Positions 9,852 through 51,291 of a stretch of DNA of 64,000 bases are shown here, one piece after another. A model generated the notes under the pieces. That model did not search any database, had not been told where the DNA came from, and worked only from the letters and a program-made list of their open reading frames with translations. This DNA is from an uncultured Gemmatimonadota bacterium (lineage in GTDB: Bacteria > JAAXHH01). Positions within the stretch are counted from its first letter, which is position 1; every line of letters starts with the position of its first letter. The DNA lies in contig OX638340.1 in NCBI GenBank assembly GCA_951812955.1, positions 3,104,001-3,168,000 of the forward strand. The letters are read 5' to 3'. The translations under genes and the position numbers were made by a program.

Positions 9852-11018
9852 ATGGCACGCAACGTTAACGTGGGCCTGGTGGGTTATTCGTTCATGGGCA
9901 AGGCGCACAGCCACGCCTTCAAGGACATGTCCTTCTTCTTTCCGGATGCGTCCGGCGTGCCGGTTATGAAGGCCATCTGCGGCCGGAACGAGGAGAACGT
10001 GAAGGGCGCGGCCGCGGAATTCGGCTGGGAAGGTTACGAGACCGACTGGAAGACGCTGGTCGCCCGCGACGACATCGACCTCATCGACGTCTCGACCCCG
10101 GGCGACAGCCACGCGGAGATTGCCATCGCCGCCGCGGAAGCGGGCAAGCACGTCTTCTGCGAGAAACCGCTGGCCAACACCCTATCGGAAGCCCGCGCCA
10201 TGGCCGACGCCGTAAACAGGGCGGGCGTGAAGAGCATGGTGGCCTACAACTATCGCAGGGTGCCCGCCGTCGCGCTGGCGAAGCGGCTTATCGAAGAGGG
10301 GCGCATCGGCCAGGTCTACCACTGGCGCGCCGTATACCTGCAGGACTGGATCATGGACCCCGACTTTCCCCTGGTCTGGCGATTGCAGAAGGAGAAGGCC
10401 GGCTCGGGCCCCCACGGGGACCTGAACGCCCACATCATCGACCTGGCCCGGTATCTCGTCGGCGAGATCACCGAGGTGACCGGCATGCAGGAGACCTTCA
10501 TCAAGGAGCGTCCCATCGCGGAGGAGATCGATGCAGCCCTGGGCGCGAGCGCCGCCACGCGCAAGGGACCGGTGACGGTGGACGACACGACCCTGGCCCT
10601 CGCCCGGTTCGAGAACGGCGCCGTGGGTTCCTTCGAGGCCACGCGCTTCGCCGGCGGCAGGCGCAACGGCAATCGATTCGAGATCAACGGCAGCAAGGGG
10701 TCCATCGCCTTCAACCTGGAGAAGATGAACGAACTGCAGTACTATGACCGGGCAGACGAGGACCACGTGCAGGGCTTTCGCGAGATCATCGTGACCGAAG
10801 GCGCCCATCCCTACATGGACCGGTGGTGGCCGCCGGGACATATCATCGGCTGGGAGCACACTTTCATCCACGAAATCTACGATCTCATGCAGGCCATCGC
10901 CGGCGCCGATGACGACCTGCACCCGGATTTCGACGAGGGGGTCAGGGACCAGGCCGTGCTGGAAGCCATTTCCCTGTCGGCCGAGCACGGCGCCTGGGTC
11001 CGGATCGCCGACCTCTAG
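9852..11018 (+). CDS. Gfo/Idh/MocA-family NAD(P)-dependent oxidoreductase
   Basis: MARNVNVGLVGYSFMGKAHSHAF is the Rossmann start, and the EKP motif (FCEKPLA) marks the family. 388 aa. Confidence 0.85.
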   Translation: MARNVNVGLVGYSFMGKAHSHAFKDMSFFFPDASGVPVMKAICGRNEENVKGAAAEFGWEGYETDWKTLVARDDIDLIDVSTPGDSHAEIAIAAAEAGKHVFCEKPLANTLSEARAMADAVNRAGVKSMVAYNYRRVPAVALAKRLIEEGRIGQVYHWRAVYLQDWIMDPDFPLVWRLQKEKAGSGPHGDLNAHIIDLARYLVGEITEVTGMQETFIKERPIAEEIDAALGASAATRKGPVTVDDTTLALARFENGAVGSFEATRFAGGRRNGNRFEINGSKGSIAFNLEKMNELQYYDRADEDHVQGFREIIVTEGAHPYMDRWWPPGHIIGWEHTFIHEIYDLMQAIAGADDDLHPDFDEGVRDQAVLEAISLSAEHGAWVRIADL

Positions 11019-22605: not shown

Positions 22606-24072
22606 TTATAAGCCGGACCTTACAATACGCGCCACGTCGTGAATCCGGCTTTTCTCTACGCCCCGCATGTCGATCCGGACCCGGTCCCGGCCGCAATCGA
22701 CCAGCAGAGGAGGGGTCCCATTAAGCCACCGGTCCGCCAGGTCTTCGCCCCTGGACCCCGGCGCGCGAACCGAGACAGCGAAGCTGGGCATGGCGTGGAT
22801 GGGAAGGCGGTACGTGGTGAGATGCGACCGCTGTTCGACCACGGTACACTCCGCGCGGAATCGACAGTCTTCAGTCAGGCGTTCGAGCAACTGGCGGGCA
22901 CGGGCGCCTACCTCGTCCGGGGATGCGGCCAGCATGTGGGCCGCCGGGTGGTTCTCGAGGTCGCAGTCGCTCCCGGCCAGTTCCGCCAGACGCGCGTCGA
23001 GCCCCGCTCTCACGTGCCTGGAGGCCCGCGCCGCGGGCCACATGCCGTGCCCTCTAATGCGCGCCAGGATCCGGCGCTTTCCGATCAGCAGTCCGCAGGG
23101 GGGACCGCCAATCAGGCCTCCGCCGGCCGCGATGATCAACGGCGTGCCGTGCCGCACCGCTTCCGCGACGGAGCCCGCGGCCGGAAGCGCGGCGGAAGTG
23201 ACCGGGCGCAACGTCGTGTCGCCGGCCAGGTGAAGCACCTCGACGCCGGTGTCCGTACCGGTCCGTACGATCTCTTCCTGCGCGGGTTCTTCTGTGAAAC
23301 CTCGAAGGGCGCAGGTGGACGGGCGCGCCGTGACGATCAGCGCGGTGCGGTCACCTACGGCGCCAAGGTAGTCGGACACGCGGGTCTTGTTGGCGGCGCC
23401 GGCCTCTACCACGGCTGCGCCGGCCTGTCCACAGATCGACACCGGACTCAAAGGCCGCGCATCGTAAGGCGCATCGATCAGTCCAAGCTGGCTGCGGCCG
23501 AAGACGACTTCCGCACCTTCGGCGAGGGCCCGGATCGCCAGGAAGAAAGCGGCGCCGACCGAACGGCATACCAGTGCGTCCTCGGCGCCGGTCAATTCGC
23601 CAAGCAGGCCGGAGGCGCGGCCGTCATCGTCGTAAGCCGCGACCGTGAGCGACAGCCGCGAAGCCCTATCCGCGGCCTTCCCGGCAAACCGGTCCCGCGC
23701 CCGTGGATGGAAGAGGATGCCGGAGGCGTTGATCAGGTCCCCGGCCGTCGACCTGTCTTCCCGCTCCAGGAGCGCGGCGACTCGTCCCGCGAAGTGCTCC
23801 GACTCGAAACCGGCCGTCGACCTTTCTTCCCGCTCCAGGAGCGTGGCGACTCGTCCCGCGAAGTGCTCCGGCTCGAAACCGCCTGCTTCAGTCTCGGGAG
23901 GACGGAACCGGATCCGGTCCCGCGCGTCGCGCAGTACTTTCCGGATCGCGTTGTCGATCTGCCGGTCCTCGAACCGGCCGCGCAATGCCCCGACGCGGGG
24001 ATCGCGTTGCATCGCGCCCACGGAAGGCAGGAGGGCGAGCCAGGGCCTTAAGTCTTCGCGGCCTGGTCTCAT
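22606..24072 (-). CDS. selA: L-seryl-tRNA(Sec) selenium transferase (selenocysteine synthase)
   Basis: Collinear with E. coli SelA from LRPWLALLPSVG (cf. LYSQLPAIDRLL) through the PLP region. The start ATG at 24072 has a GGAGGAA RBS. The gene contains an in-frame 69-bp tandem duplication. Confidence 0.85.
   Translation of the reverse strand: MRPGREDLRPWLALLPSVGAMQRDPRVGALRGRFEDRQIDNAIRKVLRDARDRIRFRPPETEAGGFEPEHFAGRVATLLEREERSTAGFESEHFAGRVAALLEREDRSTAGDLINASGILFHPRARDRFAGKAADRASRLSLTVAAYDDDGRASGLLGELTGAEDALVCRSVGAAFFLAIRALAEGAEVVFGRSQLGLIDAPYDARPLSPVSICGQAGAAVVEAGAANKTRVSDYLGAVGDRTALIVTARPSTCALRGFTEEPAQEEIVRTGTDTGVEVLHLAGDTTLRPVTSAALPAAGSVAEAVRHGTPLIIAAGGGLIGGPPCGLLIGKRRILARIRGHGMWPAARASRHVRAGLDARLAELAGSDCDLENHPAAHMLAASPDEVGARARQLLERLTEDCRFRAECTVVEQRSHLTTYRLPIHAMPSFAVSVRAPGSRGEDLADRWLNGTPPLLVDCGRDRVRIDMRGVEKSRIHDVARIVRSGL
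23741..23878. repeat. In-frame 69-bp x2 direct tandem duplication inside selA (3 mismatches)
   Basis: Copy 1 is 23741-23809 and copy 2 is 23810-23878. They encode GFEPEHFAGRVATLLEREERSTA | GFESEHFAGRVAALLEREDRSTA. Confidence 0.85.
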
Positions 24073-24785
24073 GCGGGGATTCCTCCCCGGCCTACCGTCG
24101 CGAGCGCGGATTCCGTGCAGCGTCCGGTCGAGGGATCGCCGCCGGCCCGCAGCGCCCGTATCTCGCGGGCGACCCGGTCCAGATCGGCGGGCCGGTCCAC
24201 GTCGTGCCAGACCGGGAGCTCGTGGCACGTAAGACCGCTTGCCCGGATTGCCGCCCGAGTCTGGCGCAACACGCGGCCTGTGCCCCAATGGATGGAGTCG
24301 AACAGCCTGGCGCAACGGCATGCGACCTTCACGCCGCGTCTCATGCCGATCAGGTAATACCCGCCGTCCTCGGCAGGTCCGAGCACAACGTCGTGCCGGT
24401 CGAGCGACTCGAAAGCCTCTTCGACGTAAGCGCGGGGCAGGAGGGGGCTGTCTCCACCCAGCACGACGGTCTTGTCCCATTCATTCTGCAAGAACTCCGC
24501 GAAGGCGTTCGACAGCCGTTCCCCGAGATGACCACCTCGCTGGCCGGTCCATATCACGTCCGGATCGCCGAGGGCGGACCGGAGATCCGCCAGTCCGTCT
24601 TCGGGCGCCCAGGCAACGTAGAGGGACGCGCTGGCGATCCCTTGCGCAATATGGAGCGTGTCCAGGATGAAGGCGCGGTAGAGTGCCGCCGCCGCACCGG
24701 GTGAGACCCGCGCCGTCAACCGGGTTTTCACCGTCCCGGGTCTCGGGGCTTTCATGAACAGGACGAGTGCGTTCGACATGGACAT
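24069..24785 (-). CDS. DUF2064 / TIGR04282-like nucleotidyltransferase-fold protein, translationally coupled to selA
   Basis: The start MSMSNALVLFMKAPRPGTVKTRL...LYRAFILDTL matches my recall of the DUF2064 family. The TGA stop and the selA ATG overlap as ATGA. Confidence 0.5.
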   Translation of the reverse strand: MSMSNALVLFMKAPRPGTVKTRLTARVSPGAAAALYRAFILDTLHIAQGIASASLYVAWAPEDGLADLRSALGDPDVIWTGQRGGHLGERLSNAFAEFLQNEWDKTVVLGGDSPLLPRAYVEEAFESLDRHDVVLGPAEDGGYYLIGMRRGVKVACRCARLFDSIHWGTGRVLRQTRAAIRASGLTCHELPVWHDVDRPADLDRVAREIRALRAGGDPSTGRCTESALATVGRGGIPA

Positions 24786-43082: not shown

Positions 43083-43392
43083 ATGGGGTCGATCCTTTCG
43101 GCAACCTTTATCCGTTCGTACTGAAGCGGGCCTGCTGGCAAAAAGCGCCGGCGCCTGTTCACTAACGCCGCCCGATATGGCGCTAGTGGTACAACCCGGT
43201 AATATAGGTCATCGCGGGCATTCGGGCAAACGCATTTGACATGACGGTTCCGTGCATTGGGCGATTCCTCGCCTGCTGGCATCGCCCATTTCGGTTAAGT
43301 GATCCATCCTGCTAAACTTTCTGACTGACAACCATTGAAAGTTTCGCGGGGTATCGAAAAACCGGTAATAAAGTGGTGAAGGCGTCCCGCGC

Positions 43393-44401
43393 CTAGGTGC
43401 CGTCGGGGTAGACAAGGCGGGTTATTCGGCTAGACAGATCATGGACGTATGTGAACGTCTTGTCACCGGTCAGGCCGTCGATTTCGACCTGCTTGACGCG
43501 CACGTTGCCGAGATGGTCGTAGGCGTACAGGTAGCTGACCTCGGCGGCCGGGTCAGCGTCGGTATTCTCCTCGACCTTTGCAAGGCGCCCCTGGGCGTAG
43601 TTGGGACCGCCACCCGCGATGGCATCGTTGTCTGCGGCATCGCCGTCGTCGTAGGTCATGCGGCTTCGCCACGAGGTGTTGTCGCGTTCGAAGGGGTAGG
43701 TTGCTCTCCGGATCGAGGGAGGCGAACGTGGCCGTCGCCTCGCCCACGCGCGTTACGCGGCCGAAGTCGTCGTAGATTTTGAAGGTGATTTTCTCGGTGG
43801 CGTTGCCCGTGCCTGCAGCCTTCTGCCGCGTGTCCTGTGAAAAACGCACGCGGCCCAGGTCGTCGTACTTGTAGCGGACAGGTCCGTCGGCATCGGGGTG
43901 ATGCCTGGAGGTCATGCGCCCCAGGGTGTCGTAGGCATAGCGCGAGGTGCCGCCGCCCGGCATGGTTGTCGAGACGAGGCGGTCCAGGGCGTCGTAGACA
44001 AAGGACGTTTTGTTGTTCCTGGTGGCGGCACTCGTACCCGCCGAGTCGGCTATGGCATAGCGCATGCGTCCATAGGCGTCGTAGACGCTGGTGGTCAGGA
44101 CCCCCTTTTCGTCGTCTACAGTCCGAAATGAGCGTCCCTGGCCGGACTCGATACCCCAGTTCCCGTAGCGTGAATCGACCGCGTTATCCTGTGTATGCCC
44201 GGGCGGTATGACGCGGGAGACCCTCAGCAGGGGGTCGTCGTCGTAGGAGACTTGAGTGATGCGTTCTGCCGCGTCTGCGCTGGCCAGGGCGCCGTAGGTA
44301 TGCGAAGGCGACAGGTACGCGGGTCCGAGCAGCGTATCGGGTTTATTGACGCGGTTGTAGTTCGTCTGGGTGACGATGTCGTTTGCGCCGGCTCGACGCA
44401 T
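43393..44401 (-). pseudogene. Rhs/YD-repeat gene fragment (displaced, frameshifted, truncated; no C-terminal tip)
   Basis: Two overlapping-frame ORFs (43553-44401 and 43393-43659) are homologous to residues about 1590-1990 of the large Rhs protein. A premature stop follows YPDGT. Confidence 0.75.
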
Positions 44402-45002
44402 GCAGCAGAAGATGCACCGACTGGGCTATGGATTGGAACCTCGATGCCAGCCTGACCCTGAATGTTATGGACTACAAACCACTGGCCGAATTCGAACGGA
44501 GGTTAACACGCATTAAGACAGTAGCTTAACTACTTGTCCCATTTTTGGGTGCACTACATGTCATTGCCATATACACGCCTGAAGGTCCGCAACGTGATCC
44601 CCTTGTTGGTAGGACCGCCGGGGTCGTTGGGATGATCTACGTATCCACCCTCATGGACTAATACATGTTCGAGGGATGGGGAGAAATTGGGTTTCATATT
44701 GGTTTCTGAATCCCTTTCGGTGGTGTGTTCTGCATTTGTTTAACCTCTGGTTACCTACACAGATGGTGTTTATAGTGCATTTCCCTCATTTATCACAGTT
44801 CCCGCTCATATGCAAACTCGCACACACCAATTCCCTTTGGGAAGGAGTTGATCGACGTTAACCGATCTTCTCAAAATTCGAACATGGAGGTCAGGCCAAC
44901 TTCATCGCATTAACGTCAGAAATACGTTTTTAACCGAAATACCAGATTCGGACTGTCGCATCTGGTATTTCGGAAATAAATGATAGGTATGAAAGTTCGA
45001 AG

Positions 45003-45326
45003 TTATAAGTCTATTAAGCCAAAAAGACGGAAAAAGCTGATTAGGTTGAAGAAAAAAGTACCAATTCCTGTTGTTACGATTAAAATTTTGGTACCTATGT
45101 CCTGTTTATCCCAGTGCTTTATGTCCTTCCAATAGGATAACATAACTAAATTGGCTATCACAGTTACTGTATAGATTGTATCTAACCCATACGCATCTAT
45201 AATGTCACCAAGGTATTCTGACAGAGTCTCCTTAGTATCCCGATAAGGGTTCCCACCGCTCCAAATGCTCCTAAGCAAAACTATCACCCCTACCAATGCC
45301 AGCACTCTACTTACTAATTTCGTCAT
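45003..45326 (-). CDS. Small 3-TM membrane protein, candidate immunity protein for the orphan-2 Rhs tip
   Basis: 107 aa with three hydrophobic helices. GC is clearly low for this genome (AT-rich by eye), and it lies 30 bp downstream of the rhs module stop. Confidence 0.5.
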   Translation of the reverse strand: MTKLVSRVLALVGVIVLLRSIWSGGNPYRDTKETLSEYLGDIIDAYGLDTIYTVTVIANLVMLSYWKDIKHWDKQDIGTKILIVTTGIGTFFFNLISFFRLFGLIDL

Positions 45327-45355: not shown

Positions 45356-47644
45356 TTAGCGCTCATCGTCATCTGGAATAACCGTTTTTGCTGCTTCCTT
45401 CGCCGTATCGTACGATCCACCCTTCCGATCCGATACGAATTCTCCAGTCTTGGCATCACGATATCTCGGTCCGGTGCCATTAAAAGACGTAGGTTTTATT
45501 CTAAGCCTCGAAATGACATTTAACGTTCTCGAGGTTACCATGTTTAATAAGGTAGCCCTAATTTGGTCTGTGGCTCTTTGGGATGAGCCTTCGAAAAACA
45601 GGGCATCTGCTGTTAGTGCAAACGTTTTTGTTATATCTGCACCTGTACCTATAACTGCCGAGGCTCTTACAGAGCCTAACGATCCTGCCGTTATAAAAGG
45701 ATTCCCTGAAACCAAACCCGCACCGGCACCAACTAAACCACCAGCCACACCGTAATCTGCTCCTGCCGAAACAGCATCGCTAGCTACAATGCTAGTCTGT
45801 ATAGCTTCCTGGATCGCGTCTACTGCAGCAAACCTTAATGTACGAATCTCCGATGCTATTTTTGCATAGAGGTAGTGATGCGGCTCATGATGGCTATTTC
45901 CATCCGGATCCACATACTTGAGCGGATTGTTGTTGGCATAGGCATAGGGGCTCAATCCCGGGTACTCGCCCTGCATGGGATCGGGTCTTAAGAACCTGCC
46001 TATATCGTTAGCGTACGACCTTGCGAGCATGTAGTCAAGGCCGGACTCTGAGTCTCTCTCGTGCCCGGTGAACCGGAAATGCGTGGAACCCGTGCCACTC
46101 AATGCCAAAACCTTGCCGTAGGGCCAGTAGTCGTAGATGGCGGTGACTGTGCCTTCCTCATCCACGAGGCTTCTGGTGCTTCCGAGATGATCGGTCAGGT
46201 AGTAGCTTGCGCTACTTCCTGCTATCCGCGCTATTCTTCTGCTGCCCGCGTACACGTACCTTGCAGATAGCATCTGGCCTGAGTATTCGGCGAGTACGCT
46301 GCCGTCCGCTCCCCGCAGGTAGTAGGTGACGGCCGTTCCGACGGTTTTCTTCACGCGCCGTCGGTCCGGATCCATGAGATACCGTGCGCTGCCGTAGCCG
46401 GTGGTAAGCCCGCGGTAGTCGTAGCTCACCGTATCGGCGCCCCTTCGCGTCATCCACCCGTTTTGGTTGTAGGCGTAGATCTGCCCTCCCGTGCCGGTCG
46501 TGCTGTCCAGCCTGTTGGGTGTGGAGGATGCCGAGTAGTTGTAGGTGAGCGTGGTAGTACCTGTGACCAGGCTGGTGATATTGCCGTTCCTGTCGTAGGC
46601 GTAATCCTGCGAGGCACCGCCCGACGCGTCGAAGCCGGTGATCCGGTACAGGTCGTCGTAGGCGTAGTCCGCGGTCTTGGACGCCGCGGTGCCGTGCCGG
46701 TACACCTGCCTGGTGACGTTGCCCACGTGGTCGTAGGTGAGCGTAGACCTGAACGTGCCTGCATAGTTCAGGTCGGTGACCCATTCCCGCGCGTTGTAGG
46801 TGTAGGATCCGGTGATGGCGCCGTCTCCCGCGCCATCTCCCACTCCGTCGCCCACGGTGTGGGTGGCGATATTGCCCGCTGCGGTGTGGGTGTAAGCGAC
46901 CAGGGTCTTGCCTTGCGCATCCCACACGCGGCTGAGCCGCCCGGCGCTGTCGTAGGCGTAGCGCGCCTGGCTGCCGTCGGGGTAGATCAGGCGGGTTACG
47001 CGCCCGGCCAGGTCGTGGAGGTATGTGAGCGTCTTGTCGCCGGCCAGGCCGTCGATTTCGACCTGCTTGACACGCACGTTGCCGAGATGGTCGTAGGCGT
47101 AATGATGGATGACCTCGGTCGCCGCATCCGCGTCGGTATTCTCCTCGACGTTGGTCAGGCGCCCCTGGGCGTAGTTGGGCCCGTCGCCTGCGGCATCGCC
47201 GTCGTCGTAGGTCATGCGGCTGCGCCAGGAGGTGGCATCGGTCTCGAAGGGGTAGGTGCTATCGGGATCGAGGGAGGCGAACGTGGCCGTCGCCTCGCCC
47301 ACGCGCGTTACGCGCCCGAAGGCATCGTACACGGTGTAGGTAACCTTGCCGGTGCCGGCAGCGCGCTGCCGCGCGTCCTGTGAAAAACGCACGCGGCCCA
47401 GGTCGTCGTACTTGTATTGCGTGGCCCCGTCGGCATCGGGGTGATGCCTGGAGGTCATGCGCCCCAGGGTGTCGTAGGCATAGCGCGAGGTGCCGCCGCC
47501 CGGCATGGTGGTCGAGGTGAGTCGGTCCAGGGCGTCGTAGGCGAAGGATGTTTTGTTGTTGCGGGTAGCAGCGTCCGTGCCCGCCGAGTCGGCTATGGCA
47601 TAGCGCATGCGGCCGTAGGCGTCGTAGACGCTGGCGGTTGCCAC
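45356..47644 (-). CDS. Orphan Rhs-repeat module (core 3' part + DPxG junction + distinct Gly-rich hydrophobic C-terminal toxin tip); lacks N-terminus and start
   Basis: YD repeats are collinear with the large Rhs gene, and nucleotide homology extends to about 47840. The junction is ...NNPLKYVDPDGNSHHEPHH. The tip is about 200 aa with a GVAGGLVGAGAGLVSGNPFITAGSLG segment. Confidence 0.85.
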   Translation of the reverse strand: MATASVYDAYGRMRYAIADSAGTDAATRNNKTSFAYDALDRLTSTTMPGGGTSRYAYDTLGRMTSRHHPDADGATQYKYDDLGRVRFSQDARQRAAGTGKVTYTVYDAFGRVTRVGEATATFASLDPDSTYPFETDATSWRSRMTYDDGDAAGDGPNYAQGRLTNVEENTDADAATEVIHHYAYDHLGNVRVKQVEIDGLAGDKTLTYLHDLAGRVTRLIYPDGSQARYAYDSAGRLSRVWDAQGKTLVAYTHTAAGNIATHTVGDGVGDGAGDGAITGSYTYNAREWVTDLNYAGTFRSTLTYDHVGNVTRQVYRHGTAASKTADYAYDDLYRITGFDASGGASQDYAYDRNGNITSLVTGTTTLTYNYSASSTPNRLDSTTGTGGQIYAYNQNGWMTRRGADTVSYDYRGLTTGYGSARYLMDPDRRRVKKTVGTAVTYYLRGADGSVLAEYSGQMLSARYVYAGSRRIARIAGSSASYYLTDHLGSTRSLVDEEGTVTAIYDYWPYGKVLALSGTGSTHFRFTGHERDSESGLDYMLARSYANDIGRFLRPDPMQGEYPGLSPYAYANNNPLKYVDPDGNSHHEPHHYLYAKIASEIRTLRFAAVDAIQEAIQTSIVASDAVSAGADYGVAGGLVGAGAGLVSGNPFITAGSLGSVRASAVIGTGADITKTFALTADALFFEGSSQRATDQIRATLLNMVTSRTLNVISRLRIKPTSFNGTGPRYRDAKTGEFVSDRKGGSYDTAKEAAKTVIPDDDER

Positions 47645-48367: not shown

Positions 48368-49036
48368 CTATTGCGGAAAATGTCGTTGATCGAACGTGAC
48401 GGACCAACTCCCTTCTGCCCAACTTTTTGGCGATAGCTTGACTGTTGTATCATTGATCCACTGCAATGCACCAAAGTACTTATCAAATACAAACTCGTCA
48501 GGCATATCCGTAACAACAAGGACCCTGTCTAGAATCTCTTTGGAACGGTTTCTGAGCTGGATGTAAATCCGGATCTCTTCGATTTCGTGTTCGACGAAGA
48601 CCTCGGCGACAAGGCGCCTTCCATTTCTCCACCAGACGCGTTTCCGCCAGGTCCACTGATTCACAAAGTTAAGGTCCAAGACCGCTTGCCGGGCTTTCTC
48701 GTATGGCTCAATGTCCCATCCATAAGCCCGCGTCACGATCTCGATGCCCCGGAATAACCAATTCAATGCCTTGTGTTTCTTCTCATATGCGCTGAGTTCA
48801 AAGAAGGCCAATGGATCATCCTTGATTTGTAGCTCGAGACATCCAAGCATGTCTAGTACATTCTGCCTTTTTGGCTGTGGCACGATAAAGACCGATATCT
48901 TCCATGCTTTTCCTGACTCACGAGGTGGTGTGAAATGCCTCTGGAACAAGGCGAGTACTGATCGTGTCTCATTTACAAATCGATGACTAGTCCACCACTC
49001 TAGTTTGGGTGCGTATAGACCAAACTGTCTTATCAT
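48368..49036 (-). CDS. Low-GC cytoplasmic protein, candidate immunity protein for the orphan-1 Rhs tip
   Basis: 222 aa with no signal or TM segment. It lies 26 bp downstream of the rhs tip, and its GC is far below the genome background. Confidence 0.45.
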   Translation of the reverse strand: MIRQFGLYAPKLEWWTSHRFVNETRSVLALFQRHFTPPRESGKAWKISVFIVPQPKRQNVLDMLGCLELQIKDDPLAFFELSAYEKKHKALNWLFRGIEIVTRAYGWDIEPYEKARQAVLDLNFVNQWTWRKRVWWRNGRRLVAEVFVEHEIEEIRIYIQLRNRSKEILDRVLVVTDMPDEFVFDKYFGALQWINDTTVKLSPKSWAEGSWSVTFDQRHFPQ

Positions 49037-49061
49037 GATTTCTCCTGGGGTTGGACTTCGG

Positions 49062-50918
49062 TCAGGGTTGCTGCTGCCTAATTAACTTTTGTCCTTCACT
49101 ACGCAATCGGTCCGAAGCTGCCTTCTCGGCCTCAAGCGCGGCCTGTCGCCCCGGAACATCGGTTTCAACTATCCGTGCCGAATAGGTTCCAGCCCCCTCT
49201 TGGCGGTTGAACGCATTTACCTGCGTGTTCGCACGGGGTGATGTACCGTCTACGTTAAGCGGCCTACCACTGATTCCCGTTTTGACCACATCACCAGTTT
49301 CTGTGTTGTAGATTTCGTATCGATGTTGCGGCTTGGTACTGAGTTTCGAGTTACCATGAATCGCGCTTCTAGCAGCGTCCGCCGCGTCGGCGCCTTGATC
49401 TGCCGCACGAGTTCCTCGTAGTACTTTAATGAGCGTACCGGCACCACCTGGCACGCCTGGAGCAATGGTTGCCGCCACATCCACGACGAGGCCGACCGCA
49501 TCAAGTGCTGCCCAACCGTAACTGCCCTAGCGGATATTCTGAGCCAGCGACGCCGCACCAATCCCGATGTTGACGACATCCCAGATTGTCTCGGCGGCTC
49601 TTCCATCCGGATCCACATACTTGAGCGGATTGTTGTTCGCATAGGCATATGGACTGATCCCCGGATACTCGCCCTGCATGGGATCGGGCCGCAGGAACCT
49701 GCCGACATCATAAGCGTACGACCTTGCGAGCATGTAGTCAAGGCTGGACTCTGAGTCTCTCTCGTGGCCGGTGAACCGGAAGTGCGTTGAGCCGGTGCCG
49801 CTCAAGGCCAGAACCTTGCCGTAGGGCCAGTAGTCGTAGGCGGCGGTGACGGCGCCTTCCTCATCCACGAGGCTTCTGGTGCTTCCGAGATGATCGGCCA
49901 GGTAGTAACTTGCGCTGTCTCCCGCTATTCGGGCGATCCGCCTGCTGCCGGCGTACACGTACCTGGCAGAGAGCGTCTGACCCGAGTATTCGGCCAGGAC
50001 GCTGCCGTCTGCGCCGCGCAGGTAGTAGGTGACGGCGGTCCCGACGGTCTTCTTCACGCGCCGTCTGTCGGGATCCATGAGATACCGTGCGCTGCCGTAG
50101 CCGGTGGTAAGCCCGCGGTAGTCGTAGCTCACCGTATCGGCGCCCCTTCGCGTCATCCACCCGTTGGGGTTATAGGCGTAGATCTGCCCTCCCGTACCGG
50201 TGGTGCTGTCCAGCCGGTTGAGTGTGGAGGCGGACGTGTAGTTGTAGGTGAGCGTACTGGTACCTGTGACCAGGCTGGTGATATTTCCGTTCCTGTCGTA
50301 GGCGTAGTCCCGGCTCGCGCTGCCCGACACGTCGAAGTCCGTGATCCGGTACAGGTCGTCGTAATCGTAGTCCGCGGTTATGGACGCGGCGCTGCCGTGC
50401 CGGTGCACCTGCCTGGTGACGTTGCCCGCGGGATCGTAGGTGAGCGCGGACTTAAACTTACCCGCATAGTTCAGGTCGGTGACCCATTCCCGCGCGTTGT
50501 AAGTGTAAGCACCAATGACGATGCCGTCTCCCGCGCCATCTCCCACTCCGTCGCCCACGGTGTGGGTGGCGATGTTGCCCGCTGCGGTATGGGTGTATGC
50601 TGCCAGGGTTTTGCCTTGCGCATCCCACACGCGGCTGAGCCGCCCGGCGCTGTCGTAGGCGTAGCGCGCCTGGCTGCCGTCGGGGTAGATCAGGCGGGTT
50701 ACCCGCCCAGCCAGGTCATGGACGTATTCCAGCGTCCTGGCGCCGGTGAGGCCATCGATGGTCACCTGCTTGACGCGCACGTTGCCCAGGTGATCGTAGG
50801 CGTAGAGGTGGGTGACCTCGGCGGTCGCGTCGACGTCGGTGTTCTCCTCGACTTTGGTCAGACGCCCCTGGGCGTAGTTGGGTCCGCTGGAGACGGCATC
50901 GCCGCCGTCGTAGGTCAT
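49062..50918 (-). pseudogene. Orphan Rhs-repeat module with distinct C-terminal tip interrupted by an in-frame TAG (49527-49529)
   Basis: ORFs 49527-50918 and 49062-49484 are in the same frame, separated by a single amber codon 20 aa after the DPDGR junction. The tip contains ...AIHGNSKLSTKPQHRYEIYNTETGDVVKTGISGRP... Confidence 0.7.
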
Positions 50919-51291
50919 GCGGCTGCGCCAGGAGGTGTTGTCGGGGTGACGCGGATGAGGCCGTGTTTACTCGGAGTAATTGGGCTTGCTAGGAGCGGAT
51001 AGTGAGTAAAGCACTTACCTAGTATGTCGCCTTTGCATGCGACGGGTCCAATCCGACCGGCTACCGTTGCGTCGAAGGCGGCCTGAAGCCACTCAGTCGT
51101 TCAGCCTTGTCCTAAATTGTCAGCATGATTTGCTGAGATTGGTTTTCTTGATTCTCTACAACAAATGTCTGACGCTCAATTCTCATTGTAGCATCTGTCT
51201 ATCCAACGTAGCAACTATGAACTCCATCGAATAAACCATTCAAACATCCAAGCCGACGTACCTACAGGACATTGTTAGTCCGTTCAGAAGC

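What the first reader, a model, noticed from the sequence alone, without database searches (positions are those of the whole stretch)
49062..50918. In-frame amber codon 20 residues into an orphan Rhs toxin tip, with intact downstream immunity candidate
ORFs 49527-50918 and 49062-49484 share a frame and are separated by a single TAG (...LAQNIR*YGWAALDAVG...). The core repeats and the tip (with an H/N-rich stretch AIHGNSKLSTKPQHRYEIYN that might be a degenerate HNH-like nuclease signature) are otherwise open.

This is either a recent inactivating mutation of a silent cassette, a sequencing/assembly error, or a point of stop-codon readthrough.
Basis: seen in the sequence. Interest (0 to 1): 0.55.

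Follow-up and report, generated by a model that had tools for sequence, protein, structure and literature searches.

The report
Nonsense-mutated orphan Rhs nuclease cassette
A spare toxin cassette behind a large Rhs toxin gene has been switched off by a single G-to-T change that turns a conserved glutamate codon into a stop, while its immunity gene stays intact; this is ordinary decay of a bacterial warfare locus, not an assembly error or a recoding signal.

Summary
On the minus strand an Rhs core fragment (49601-50943) runs into a TAG at 49529-49527. The same frame then continues to TGA at 49064-49062.

- **Nonsense mutation:** Intact relatives read CGC GAG GGC (Glu) where the window reads CGC TAG GGC (L005, L010, L011, L014). 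This is a single G>T change, 24 codons after the DPDG motif, in a strongly constrained pre-toxin linker.
- **Not an assembly error:** Three other metagenome assemblies (L001-L003) carry the same TAG. Their DNA is identical to the window over 720 bp and then diverges in the toxin tail and the immunity gene.
- **Tip identity:** The tip is a Tox-URI2 (GIY-YIG fold) nuclease, not HNH. All family-invariant residues are kept, and omega after the stop is about 0.2, so the mutation is recent.
- **Immunity gene:** The 222-aa downstream gene is intact. It sits next to Tox-URI2 genes even in Lachnospiraceae MAGs.
- **No recoding evidence:** TAG is a normal stop in this genome. No structured RNA, suppressor tRNA or conserved stop supports readthrough.
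- **Context:** Neighbouring remnants in the array are also decayed.

Verdict: a recently disarmed orphan toxin cassette with retained immunity. This is a known phenomenon and of low interest.

The parts
52995..60287 (-). Full-length rhs/YD-repeat gene (2430 aa) with its own C-terminal tip. It is the potential recipient of the orphan cassettes.
   Evidence: ORF. Pfam RHS_repeat. Its 3' core (53509-54852) is 87% identical to the orphan core.
49601..50943 (-). Orphan Rhs core fragment. It is 5'-truncated, has no start of its own, and ends in ...NNNPLKYVDPDG.
   Evidence: Self-BLAST gives 87-88% nucleotide identity to the main rhs and to orphan 2, ending exactly at 49600/49601. In-frame stops lie upstream of 50943.
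49413..49600 (-). Pre-toxin linker (RAAETIWDVVNIGIGAASLAQNIR*GSYGWAALDAVGLVVDVAATIAPGVPGGAGTLIKVLRG). It contains the amber codon.
   Evidence: It matches the N-terminal 76 positions of Pfam Ntox10. Apart from a Gln for the first residue (Arg) and Glu in place of the stop, it is identical at the amino-acid level to L011, with omega 0.035, and it is identical apart from the stop to L014. AF2 predicts it disordered in isolation.
49527..49529 (-). In-frame TAG. It is a GAG (Glu) to TAG nonsense mutation: G>T on the coding strand at 49529.
   Evidence: Window reads CGC TAG GGC. L005 and L010 read CGC GAG GGC. L011 has G at this site and L014 has GAG. The same TAG is present in L001-L003.
49116..49346 (-). 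Tox-URI2 (GIY-YIG/URI fold) nuclease toxin domain, intact in sequence.
49062..49064 (-). Natural TGA stop of the toxin reading frame.
49041..49046 (-). Shine-Dalgarno-like AGGAGA, 4 nt upstream of the immunity ATG.
   Evidence: Read directly from the sequence.
48368..49036 (-). Candidate cognate immunity gene (222 aa), intact, with a hypervariable N-terminal patch at about aa 44-95.
   Evidence: A 222-aa orthologue lies directly downstream of the toxin in L010, L004, L005 and L014. More distant homologues lie downstream of Tox-URI2 in the Lachnospiraceae MAG loci L006 and L007. No Pfam or NCBIfam hit.
49187..49907 (-). Segment 100% identical between the window and contigs L001-L003, including the TAG. 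It is flanked by diverged sequence, which marks recombination mosaicism.
   Evidence: Mismatch map; per-segment identities of 100% / 90% / 82%.
45356..47644 (-). Orphan 2: Rhs core fragment with an unclassified Gly-rich tip. The small TM-like ORF 45003-45326 follows it.
43380..44401 (-). Orphan 3: a frameshifted, truncated Rhs core remnant with no tip.

Best explanation
The locus is an Rhs/YD-repeat polymorphic-toxin array in an uncultured FCB-group bacterium. It holds one full-length rhs gene followed by three displaced ('orphan') C-terminal cassettes. Orphan 1 carries about 1.34 kb of core homology, a conserved pre-toxin linker, a Tox-URI2 (GIY-YIG fold) nuclease domain and a cognate immunity gene.

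A single G>T transversion changed a conserved Glu codon (GAG) in the linker to TAG, 24 codons after the DPDG motif. As a result, even if the cassette recombined onto the main rhs gene, the product would end before the toxin. The cassette is disarmed, while its separately translated immunity gene stays functional and selectable.

The mutation is real and circulates in a natural population. It is recent, because the toxin domain downstream shows no decay.

Shown: the nonsense change, its presence in several assemblies, the domain identity, and the intact immunity ORF. Inferred: the cassette is silent, the toxin is a DNase, the 222-aa protein neutralises it, and the loss is neutral or mildly advantageous.
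For: - **Ancestral codon:** The orthologous codon is GAG in L005 and L010, L011 and L014. Glu is also present in P0001, P0005, P0007, P0009 and P0011.
- **Independent assemblies:** The same TAG occurs in three other assemblies from different ENA samples, L001-L003. The flanks are identical over 720 bp, but the toxin tail and immunity gene differ.
- **Constrained linker:** Omega is 0.035 against L011, and there are 0 nonsynonymous against 5 synonymous changes before the stop against L014. A stop at this site is therefore disruptive.
- **Undecayed toxin domain:** Every invariant and near-invariant residue is retained. Omega after the stop is 0.16-0.23 against L014 and 0.11 against L010, similar to the intact-versus-intact value of 0.135.
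- **Orphan status:** Core homology starts at 50943, with no start codon or N-terminal region.
- **TAG is an ordinary stop here:** It ends 13 of 36 ORFs, including the main rhs and the ThiD/ThiN gene.
- **Decay elsewhere in the array:** Orphan 3 is frameshifted and truncated, and a truncated GH108 fragment lies nearby. In L013 the related cassette is truncated at the 5' end and an IS transposase follows it.
- **Literature:** Orphan Rhs cassettes are silent until recombined (PMC3967940). Premature stops are common in toxin clusters (PMC11481896).
Against: - No reads, transcriptome or proteome are available, so silence of the cassette and absence of low-level readthrough are inferred, not shown.
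- The TAG persists in two haplotypes that differ downstream. This could mean the allele is tolerated or favoured rather than newly arisen.
- A 140-aa ORF starting at GTG 49484 still encodes the whole nuclease domain, so internal expression cannot be formally excluded.
Confidence: 0.85

Rival explanations
1. Sequencing or assembly error: the true codon is a sense codon (GAG).
For: Single-base errors do occur in metagenome assemblies. The long-read MAG locus L005 shows a probable indel in the same toxin.
Against: Three further contigs from three different samples and assemblers carry exactly the same TAG. The site is not a homopolymer (CGCTAGGGC).
Confidence: 0.03
2. Programmed stop-codon readthrough or recoding of the amber codon, so that a full-length tip is still made.
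For: The frame downstream is open and under purifying selection in pairwise comparisons. The allele is found in two haplotypes.
Against: - The stop is absent from all relatives at 73-89% nucleotide identity.
- TAG is a frequent genuine terminator in this genome.
- The 116 nt from the stop onward fold no better than shuffles, z = +0.55.
- There is no Rfam element and no tRNA gene in the window.
- The low omega is explained by the youth of the mutation: there are zero substitutions over 720 bp between the two TAG haplotypes.
- From my own knowledge rather than a test here, a G after the stop is not a weak termination context in E. coli studies.
Confidence: 0.03
3. The TAG is irrelevant because the nuclease is made from an internal start downstream (for example GTG 49484, giving 140 aa). 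It would act inside the producer as a toxin-antitoxin-like module with the immunity protein, as reported for Salmonella Rhs-CTs.
For: - PMC7043789 shows internal promoters and non-ATG starts expressing Rhs-CT toxins as type II TA modules.
- The 140-aa ORF contains the entire Tox-URI2 domain.
- The domain is undecayed.
Against: - There is no Shine-Dalgarno sequence upstream of GTG 49484, whereas the immunity gene has AGGAGA.
- The promoter scan found one site in the region, against a shuffle expectation of 1.8.
- Lack of decay is equally explained by a recent mutation.
- Gene callers picking the 140-aa ORF is purely mechanical.
Confidence: 0.07

Closest known systems
Orphan rhs-CT/immunity modules downstream of full-length rhs genes (Salmonella Typhimurium LT2; PMC3967940)
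   Same: A 5'-truncated core fragment homologous to the main gene, a PxxxxDPxG boundary, a variable toxin tip and an adjacent immunity gene. The cassette is presumed silent until recombined onto the main gene.
   Different: - The host here is an uncultured FCB-group bacterium (TopA 66-70% identical to Latescibacteria, Zixibacteria and Gemmatimonadota MAGs).
- No T6SS genes were seen in the window.
- The array holds three orphans.
- This cassette carries a nonsense mutation, so recombination would yield a toxin-less Rhs.
Tox-URI2 toxin domain of polymorphic toxin systems (Pfam PF15653; Zhang et al. 2012, PMC3482391)
   Same: HMM match well above threshold, the conserved Y / KxG / [EQ] signature, a GIY-YIG-like fold, and fusion to RHS repeats.
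   Different: The partner immunity protein is none of the listed Imm9, Imm12, Imm39 or Imm44 families (no Pfam hit at E<=1). The phylum is not among those listed in 2012.
Decayed toxin/immunity clusters with retained or orphan immunity genes (Ralstonia T6SS aux clusters, PMC11481896)
   Same: Loss-of-function by a premature stop in the toxin while the immunity gene is kept. This is common: 23.5% of clusters there are decayed.
   Different: That survey covers T6SS VgrG-linked clusters in a cultured pathogen. Here the case is an Rhs orphan array seen only in metagenomes, and the same nonsense allele is shared by two recombinant haplotypes.
Internally expressed Rhs-CT toxin-antitoxin modules (PMC7043789)
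   Same: An ORF covering the complete toxin domain exists downstream of the core, followed by the immunity gene.
   Different: No promoter or RBS evidence was found here, and nothing was tested experimentally. I treat this as a rival explanation, not as membership.

Membership tests
Orphan Rhs C-terminal cassette (polymorphic toxin array) | 5'-truncated core fragment homologous to the 3' core of a full-length rhs gene in the same locus | tested here: met
   49600-50943 is 87% identical to 53509-54852 (main rhs) and 88% identical to orphan 2. In-frame stops lie upstream.
Orphan Rhs C-terminal cassette (polymorphic toxin array) | PxxxxDPxG boundary motif, after which homology to the main gene stops | tested here: met
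   The motif reads ...NNNPLKYVDPDG, and homology ends at 49600/49601.
Orphan Rhs C-terminal cassette (polymorphic toxin array) | Variable toxin domain followed by a cognate immunity gene | tested here: met
   Tox-URI2. The 222-aa gene is syntenic in L004, L005, L010, L014, L006 and L007. Neutralisation itself was not tested.
Orphan Rhs C-terminal cassette (polymorphic toxin array) | Can be activated by recombination with the main gene | not testable with these tools
   Only the 1.34-kb recombination substrate at 87% identity is shown.
Tox-URI2 (PF15653) | Match to the family HMM above the gathering score | tested here: met
   54.6 bits against a cutoff of 20, E 1.4e-14.
Tox-URI2 (PF15653) | Conserved Y, KxG, [EQ] residues (PMC3482391) | tested here: met
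   Y70, K82-T-G84 and E134 are all invariant columns that the window retains.
Tox-URI2 (PF15653) | URI / GIY-YIG fold | tested here: met
Tox-URI2 (PF15653) | Nuclease activity and toxicity | not testable with these tools
   Needs expression of a TAG>GAG revertant.
   No HNH family appears at E<=1 in Pfam. The fold search returns GIY-YIG nucleases and no HNH among the top hits.
Programmed stop-codon readthrough / amber recoding | Stop codon conserved at the site in diverged homologues | tested here: not met
   GAG is found in L005, L010, L011 and L014. Ala is found in P0002.
Programmed stop-codon readthrough / amber recoding | TAG depleted as a terminator, or reassigned, in the genome | tested here: not met
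   TAG ends 13 of 36 ORFs in the window.
Programmed stop-codon readthrough / amber recoding | Stimulatory downstream RNA structure or suppressor tRNA | tested here: inconclusive
   Fold z = +0.55. No Rfam hit. No tRNA in the window. The rest of the genome was not available.

The most novel reading that the evidence does not exclude
The amber allele may not be mere decay. It could be a maintained 'disarmed toxin, kept immunity' state that spreads by recombination between haplotypes. This would fit its presence on two backgrounds with different toxin tails and different immunity specificity patches. Alternatively, the nuclease domain could still be produced from an internal start and act as a TA-like addiction module that keeps the cassette in the genome.
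Probability: 0.07. Interest if true: 0.45.

Novelty: new member of a known kind. Interest (0 to 1): 0.15.

Why it matters
It matters little beyond annotation. The two ORFs (49527-50918 and 49062-49484) should be annotated as one pseudogenised orphan rhs-CT (Tox-URI2), not as two genes, and the 222-aa ORF as its immunity candidate.

Two modest points of wider use:
- The 222-aa protein family is a conserved, uncurated partner of Tox-URI2 across phyla.
- The locus gives a natural snapshot of an Rhs array decaying cassette by cassette while immunity genes persist. One nonsense allele is shared by recombinant haplotypes.

Tried and rejected
- **Conserved stop in P0004/L004:** The 140-aa protein P0004 looked like a second lineage with the same upstream stop. 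The contig has a run of N across the linker, so this is a scaffold-gap artefact.
- **P0006/L013:** The 126-aa call comes from a 5'-truncated toxin remnant followed by an IS transposase, not a stop at the same site.
- **Sequence search of PDB:** It found only the Rhs core and linker part (YenC2, TccC3, Rhs). No toxin-domain homologue was found by sequence.
- **Suppressor tRNA:** No tRNA gene in the window.
- **Readthrough-stimulating structure:** None; z = +0.55. No Rfam hit.
- **Promoter and terminator scan:** Nothing above shuffle expectation.
- **Exact-pattern scan of JGI metagenomes (G/T at the site):** Found nothing. A codon-degenerate pattern found one intact GAG allele, L014.
- **Donor for the L001-type toxin tail and immunity patch:** No near-identical source among the fetched loci.
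- **Immunity protein and the other two tips:** No Pfam or NCBIfam family.

Full report
**1. Observation**

On the minus strand, ORF 49527-50918 (463 aa of YD/Rhs repeats) ends ...YVDPDGRAAETIWDVVNIGIGAASLAQNIR with TAG at 49529-49527. The same frame continues GSYGWAALDAVGLVVDVAATIAPGVPGG... for 154 codons to TGA at 49064-49062. The stop is 24 residues after DPDG, not 20.

The two ORFs are parts of one gene. Continuous proteins from other assemblies align across the stop, for example P0001 at 82% identity and 100% coverage.

**2. Context**

A self-comparison shows that 49600-50943 is 87% identical to the 3' core of the full-length rhs gene (52995-60287, 2430 aa) and 88% identical to a second orphan (45356-47644). 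Homology stops exactly after the DPDG motif. Upstream of 50943 the frame is closed, and ATG 50918 is only the conserved Met of '...SWRSRMTYD...'. This is therefore a classical displaced 'orphan' rhs-CT cassette with no start of its own.

The array also shows decay elsewhere:
- A third core remnant (43380-44401) is frameshifted and truncated.
- A 47-aa fragment matches only the first 37 of 85 positions of Glyco_hydro_108.

GC content drops from about 65% in the cores to 40-50% in the tips and immunity genes, as is usual for horizontally shuffled cassettes.

The organism is an uncultured bacterium. Its TopA is 66-70% identical to proteins named from Latescibacteria, Zixibacteria and Gemmatimonadota MAGs.

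**3. What the tip is**

- **Family:** Pfam assigns residues 61-137 after the stop to Tox-URI2 (PF15653; E 1.4e-14, 54.6 bits against a cutoff of 20). The linker that spans the stop matches the N-terminal part of the Ntox10 model.
- **Conserved residues:** In an alignment of 27 homologues, the window retains all 27 invariant and 14 near-invariant residues. These include the Y / KxG / [EQ] signature given for Tox-URI2 by Zhang et al. 2012 (PMC3482391).
- **Conclusion:** The HNH suggestion is not supported.

**4. What the stop is**

Orthologous cassettes read CGC GAG GGC where the window reads CGC TAG GGC. This holds for L005 (a 3.8-Mb MAG contig) and L010 (a contig syntenic with the window's AAA-ATPase and ThiD/ThiN genes). 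It also holds for L011, which has the same linker fused to a different toxin. L014 is the closest intact relative, at 89% nucleotide identity over 1.8 kb. Glu is also present in P0005, P0009 and P0011.

The change is therefore a single G>T transversion at a conserved Glu. The linker is strongly constrained. Omega is 0.035 against L011, and there are 0 nonsynonymous against 5 synonymous differences in the 24 codons before the stop against L014.

**5. Not an artefact**

Three more contigs from three ENA samples carry the same TAG: L001 (ERZ23495229), L002 (ERZ6126425) and L003 (ERZ23495240). They are 100% identical to the window from 49907 to 49187. Upstream they differ at six positions, all third-codon. 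Downstream they differ sharply: 14 differences in the last 122 nt of the toxin (9 nonsynonymous) and a very different immunity N-terminal patch.

Two recombinant haplotypes therefore share the nonsense allele. An apparent fourth case, L004, is a scaffold N-gap.

**6. Age and consequence**

Omega downstream of the stop is 0.16-0.23 against L014 and 0.11 against L010. This is comparable to the intact-versus-intact value of 0.135. No conserved residue is lost. The mutation is therefore young relative to the divergence from intact alleles.

The immunity ORF (48368-49036, 222 aa) is intact and is preceded by AGGAGA. A 222-aa orthologue lies directly downstream of the toxin in L004, L005, L010 and L014. 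More distant homologues follow Tox-URI2 genes in two Lachnospiraceae MAG loci: L006 at E 1e-28 and L007 at E 2e-11. It has no Pfam or NCBIfam family.

**7. Recoding and other rivals**

- TAG ends 13 of 36 ORFs in the window, including the main rhs and the Pfam-supported ThiD/ThiN gene.
- There is no tRNA gene in the window.
- The RNA from the stop onward folds no better than shuffles, z = +0.55.
- There is no Rfam match.
- The stop is not conserved in any diverged relative.
- Internal expression of the 140-aa GTG ORF, as described for Salmonella Rhs-CTs (PMC7043789), cannot be excluded. However, there is no Shine-Dalgarno sequence or promoter signal.

**8. Mechanism**

The most likely reading (about 0.85) is that a silent orphan Tox-URI2 cassette acquired a nonsense mutation in its pre-toxin linker. 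If it recombined onto the main rhs gene, as orphans do in Salmonella (PMC3967940), it would give a toxin-less Rhs. The independently translated immunity gene remains, and it can still protect against neighbours that deploy the intact toxin.

Premature stops in toxin genes with retained immunity are common in comparable loci (PMC11481896). A related cassette in L013 has decayed by a different route, through truncation and IS insertion.

**9. Verdict**

An assembly error is effectively excluded, readthrough is unsupported, and the HNH label is wrong. This is a known kind of event in a new host and locus, and it is of low interest.

Noticed in passing
window 43380-44401 (-): The third Rhs core remnant has a frameshift near 43700 (...ESNLPLRTRQHLVAKPHDL... 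instead of ...YPFERDNTSWRSRMTYDD...). It ends at a stop near 43394 with no tip or immunity gene, so it is a decayed orphan.
   Followed up: partly
window 44554-44697 (-): A 47-aa ORF matches only positions 2-37 of the 85-position Pfam Glyco_hydro_108 model (E 8e-13). It is a truncated lysozyme-like remnant between the orphan 2 immunity gene and orphan 3.
   Followed up: partly
window 51292-52170 and 52167-52979 (-): Two low-GC ORFs directly after the main rhs gene are paralogues (26% identity, E 7e-29). Neither has a Pfam family. They may be tandem immunity paralogues for the unclassified main tip (52995-53509).
   Followed up: partly
window 48368-49036 (-); L006 10456-10989; L007 3629-4159: The 222-aa immunity candidate belongs to a family that is absent from Pfam and NCBIfam. 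The family nevertheless sits right after Tox-URI2 genes in Lachnospiraceae MAGs, so it is an uncurated Tox-URI2 immunity family.
   Followed up: partly
window 48760-49186 (-) vs L001-L003, L014: The last ~40 aa of the toxin and residues ~44-95 of the immunity protein vary together between haplotypes. The rest of the immunity protein is nearly identical; its C-terminal ~125 aa are identical to L014. This looks like a co-varying specificity patch exchanged by recombination.
   Followed up: partly
L011 302-1297: The same pre-toxin linker (amino-acid identical after its first residue, Gln for Arg; about 13 synonymous differences over the 63 codons compared) is fused to a different toxin with a faint Tox-REase-7 hit. 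The contig comes from the same sampling campaign as L001 and L003. The linker may act as a shared recombination junction.
   Followed up: partly
L005 ~10400-10470: The orthologous toxin in the 3.8-Mb long-read MAG contig has a frameshift near its C-terminus (...AEKAASERIA*). This could be a second independent inactivation or a long-read indel error.
   Followed up: no
L013 480-2429: A related Tox-URI2 cassette is truncated at both ends. Its immunity gene is cut short and is followed by a DDE transposase, which is decay of the same cassette type by a different route.
   Followed up: partly
window 45356-45897 and 45003-45326 (-): The orphan 2 tip is Gly/Ala-rich and hydrophobic and has no Pfam or NCBIfam family. 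It is followed by a 107-aa ORF that looks like a membrane protein. This may be a membrane-targeting toxin and immunity pair.
   Followed up: no
window 22606-24480 (-): A 624-aa ORF matches SelA (L-seryl-tRNA selenium transferase) only over residues 290-608, so it carries a long N-terminal extension. It also suggests selenocysteine (UGA) recoding in this organism, which is unrelated to the amber codon.
   Followed up: no
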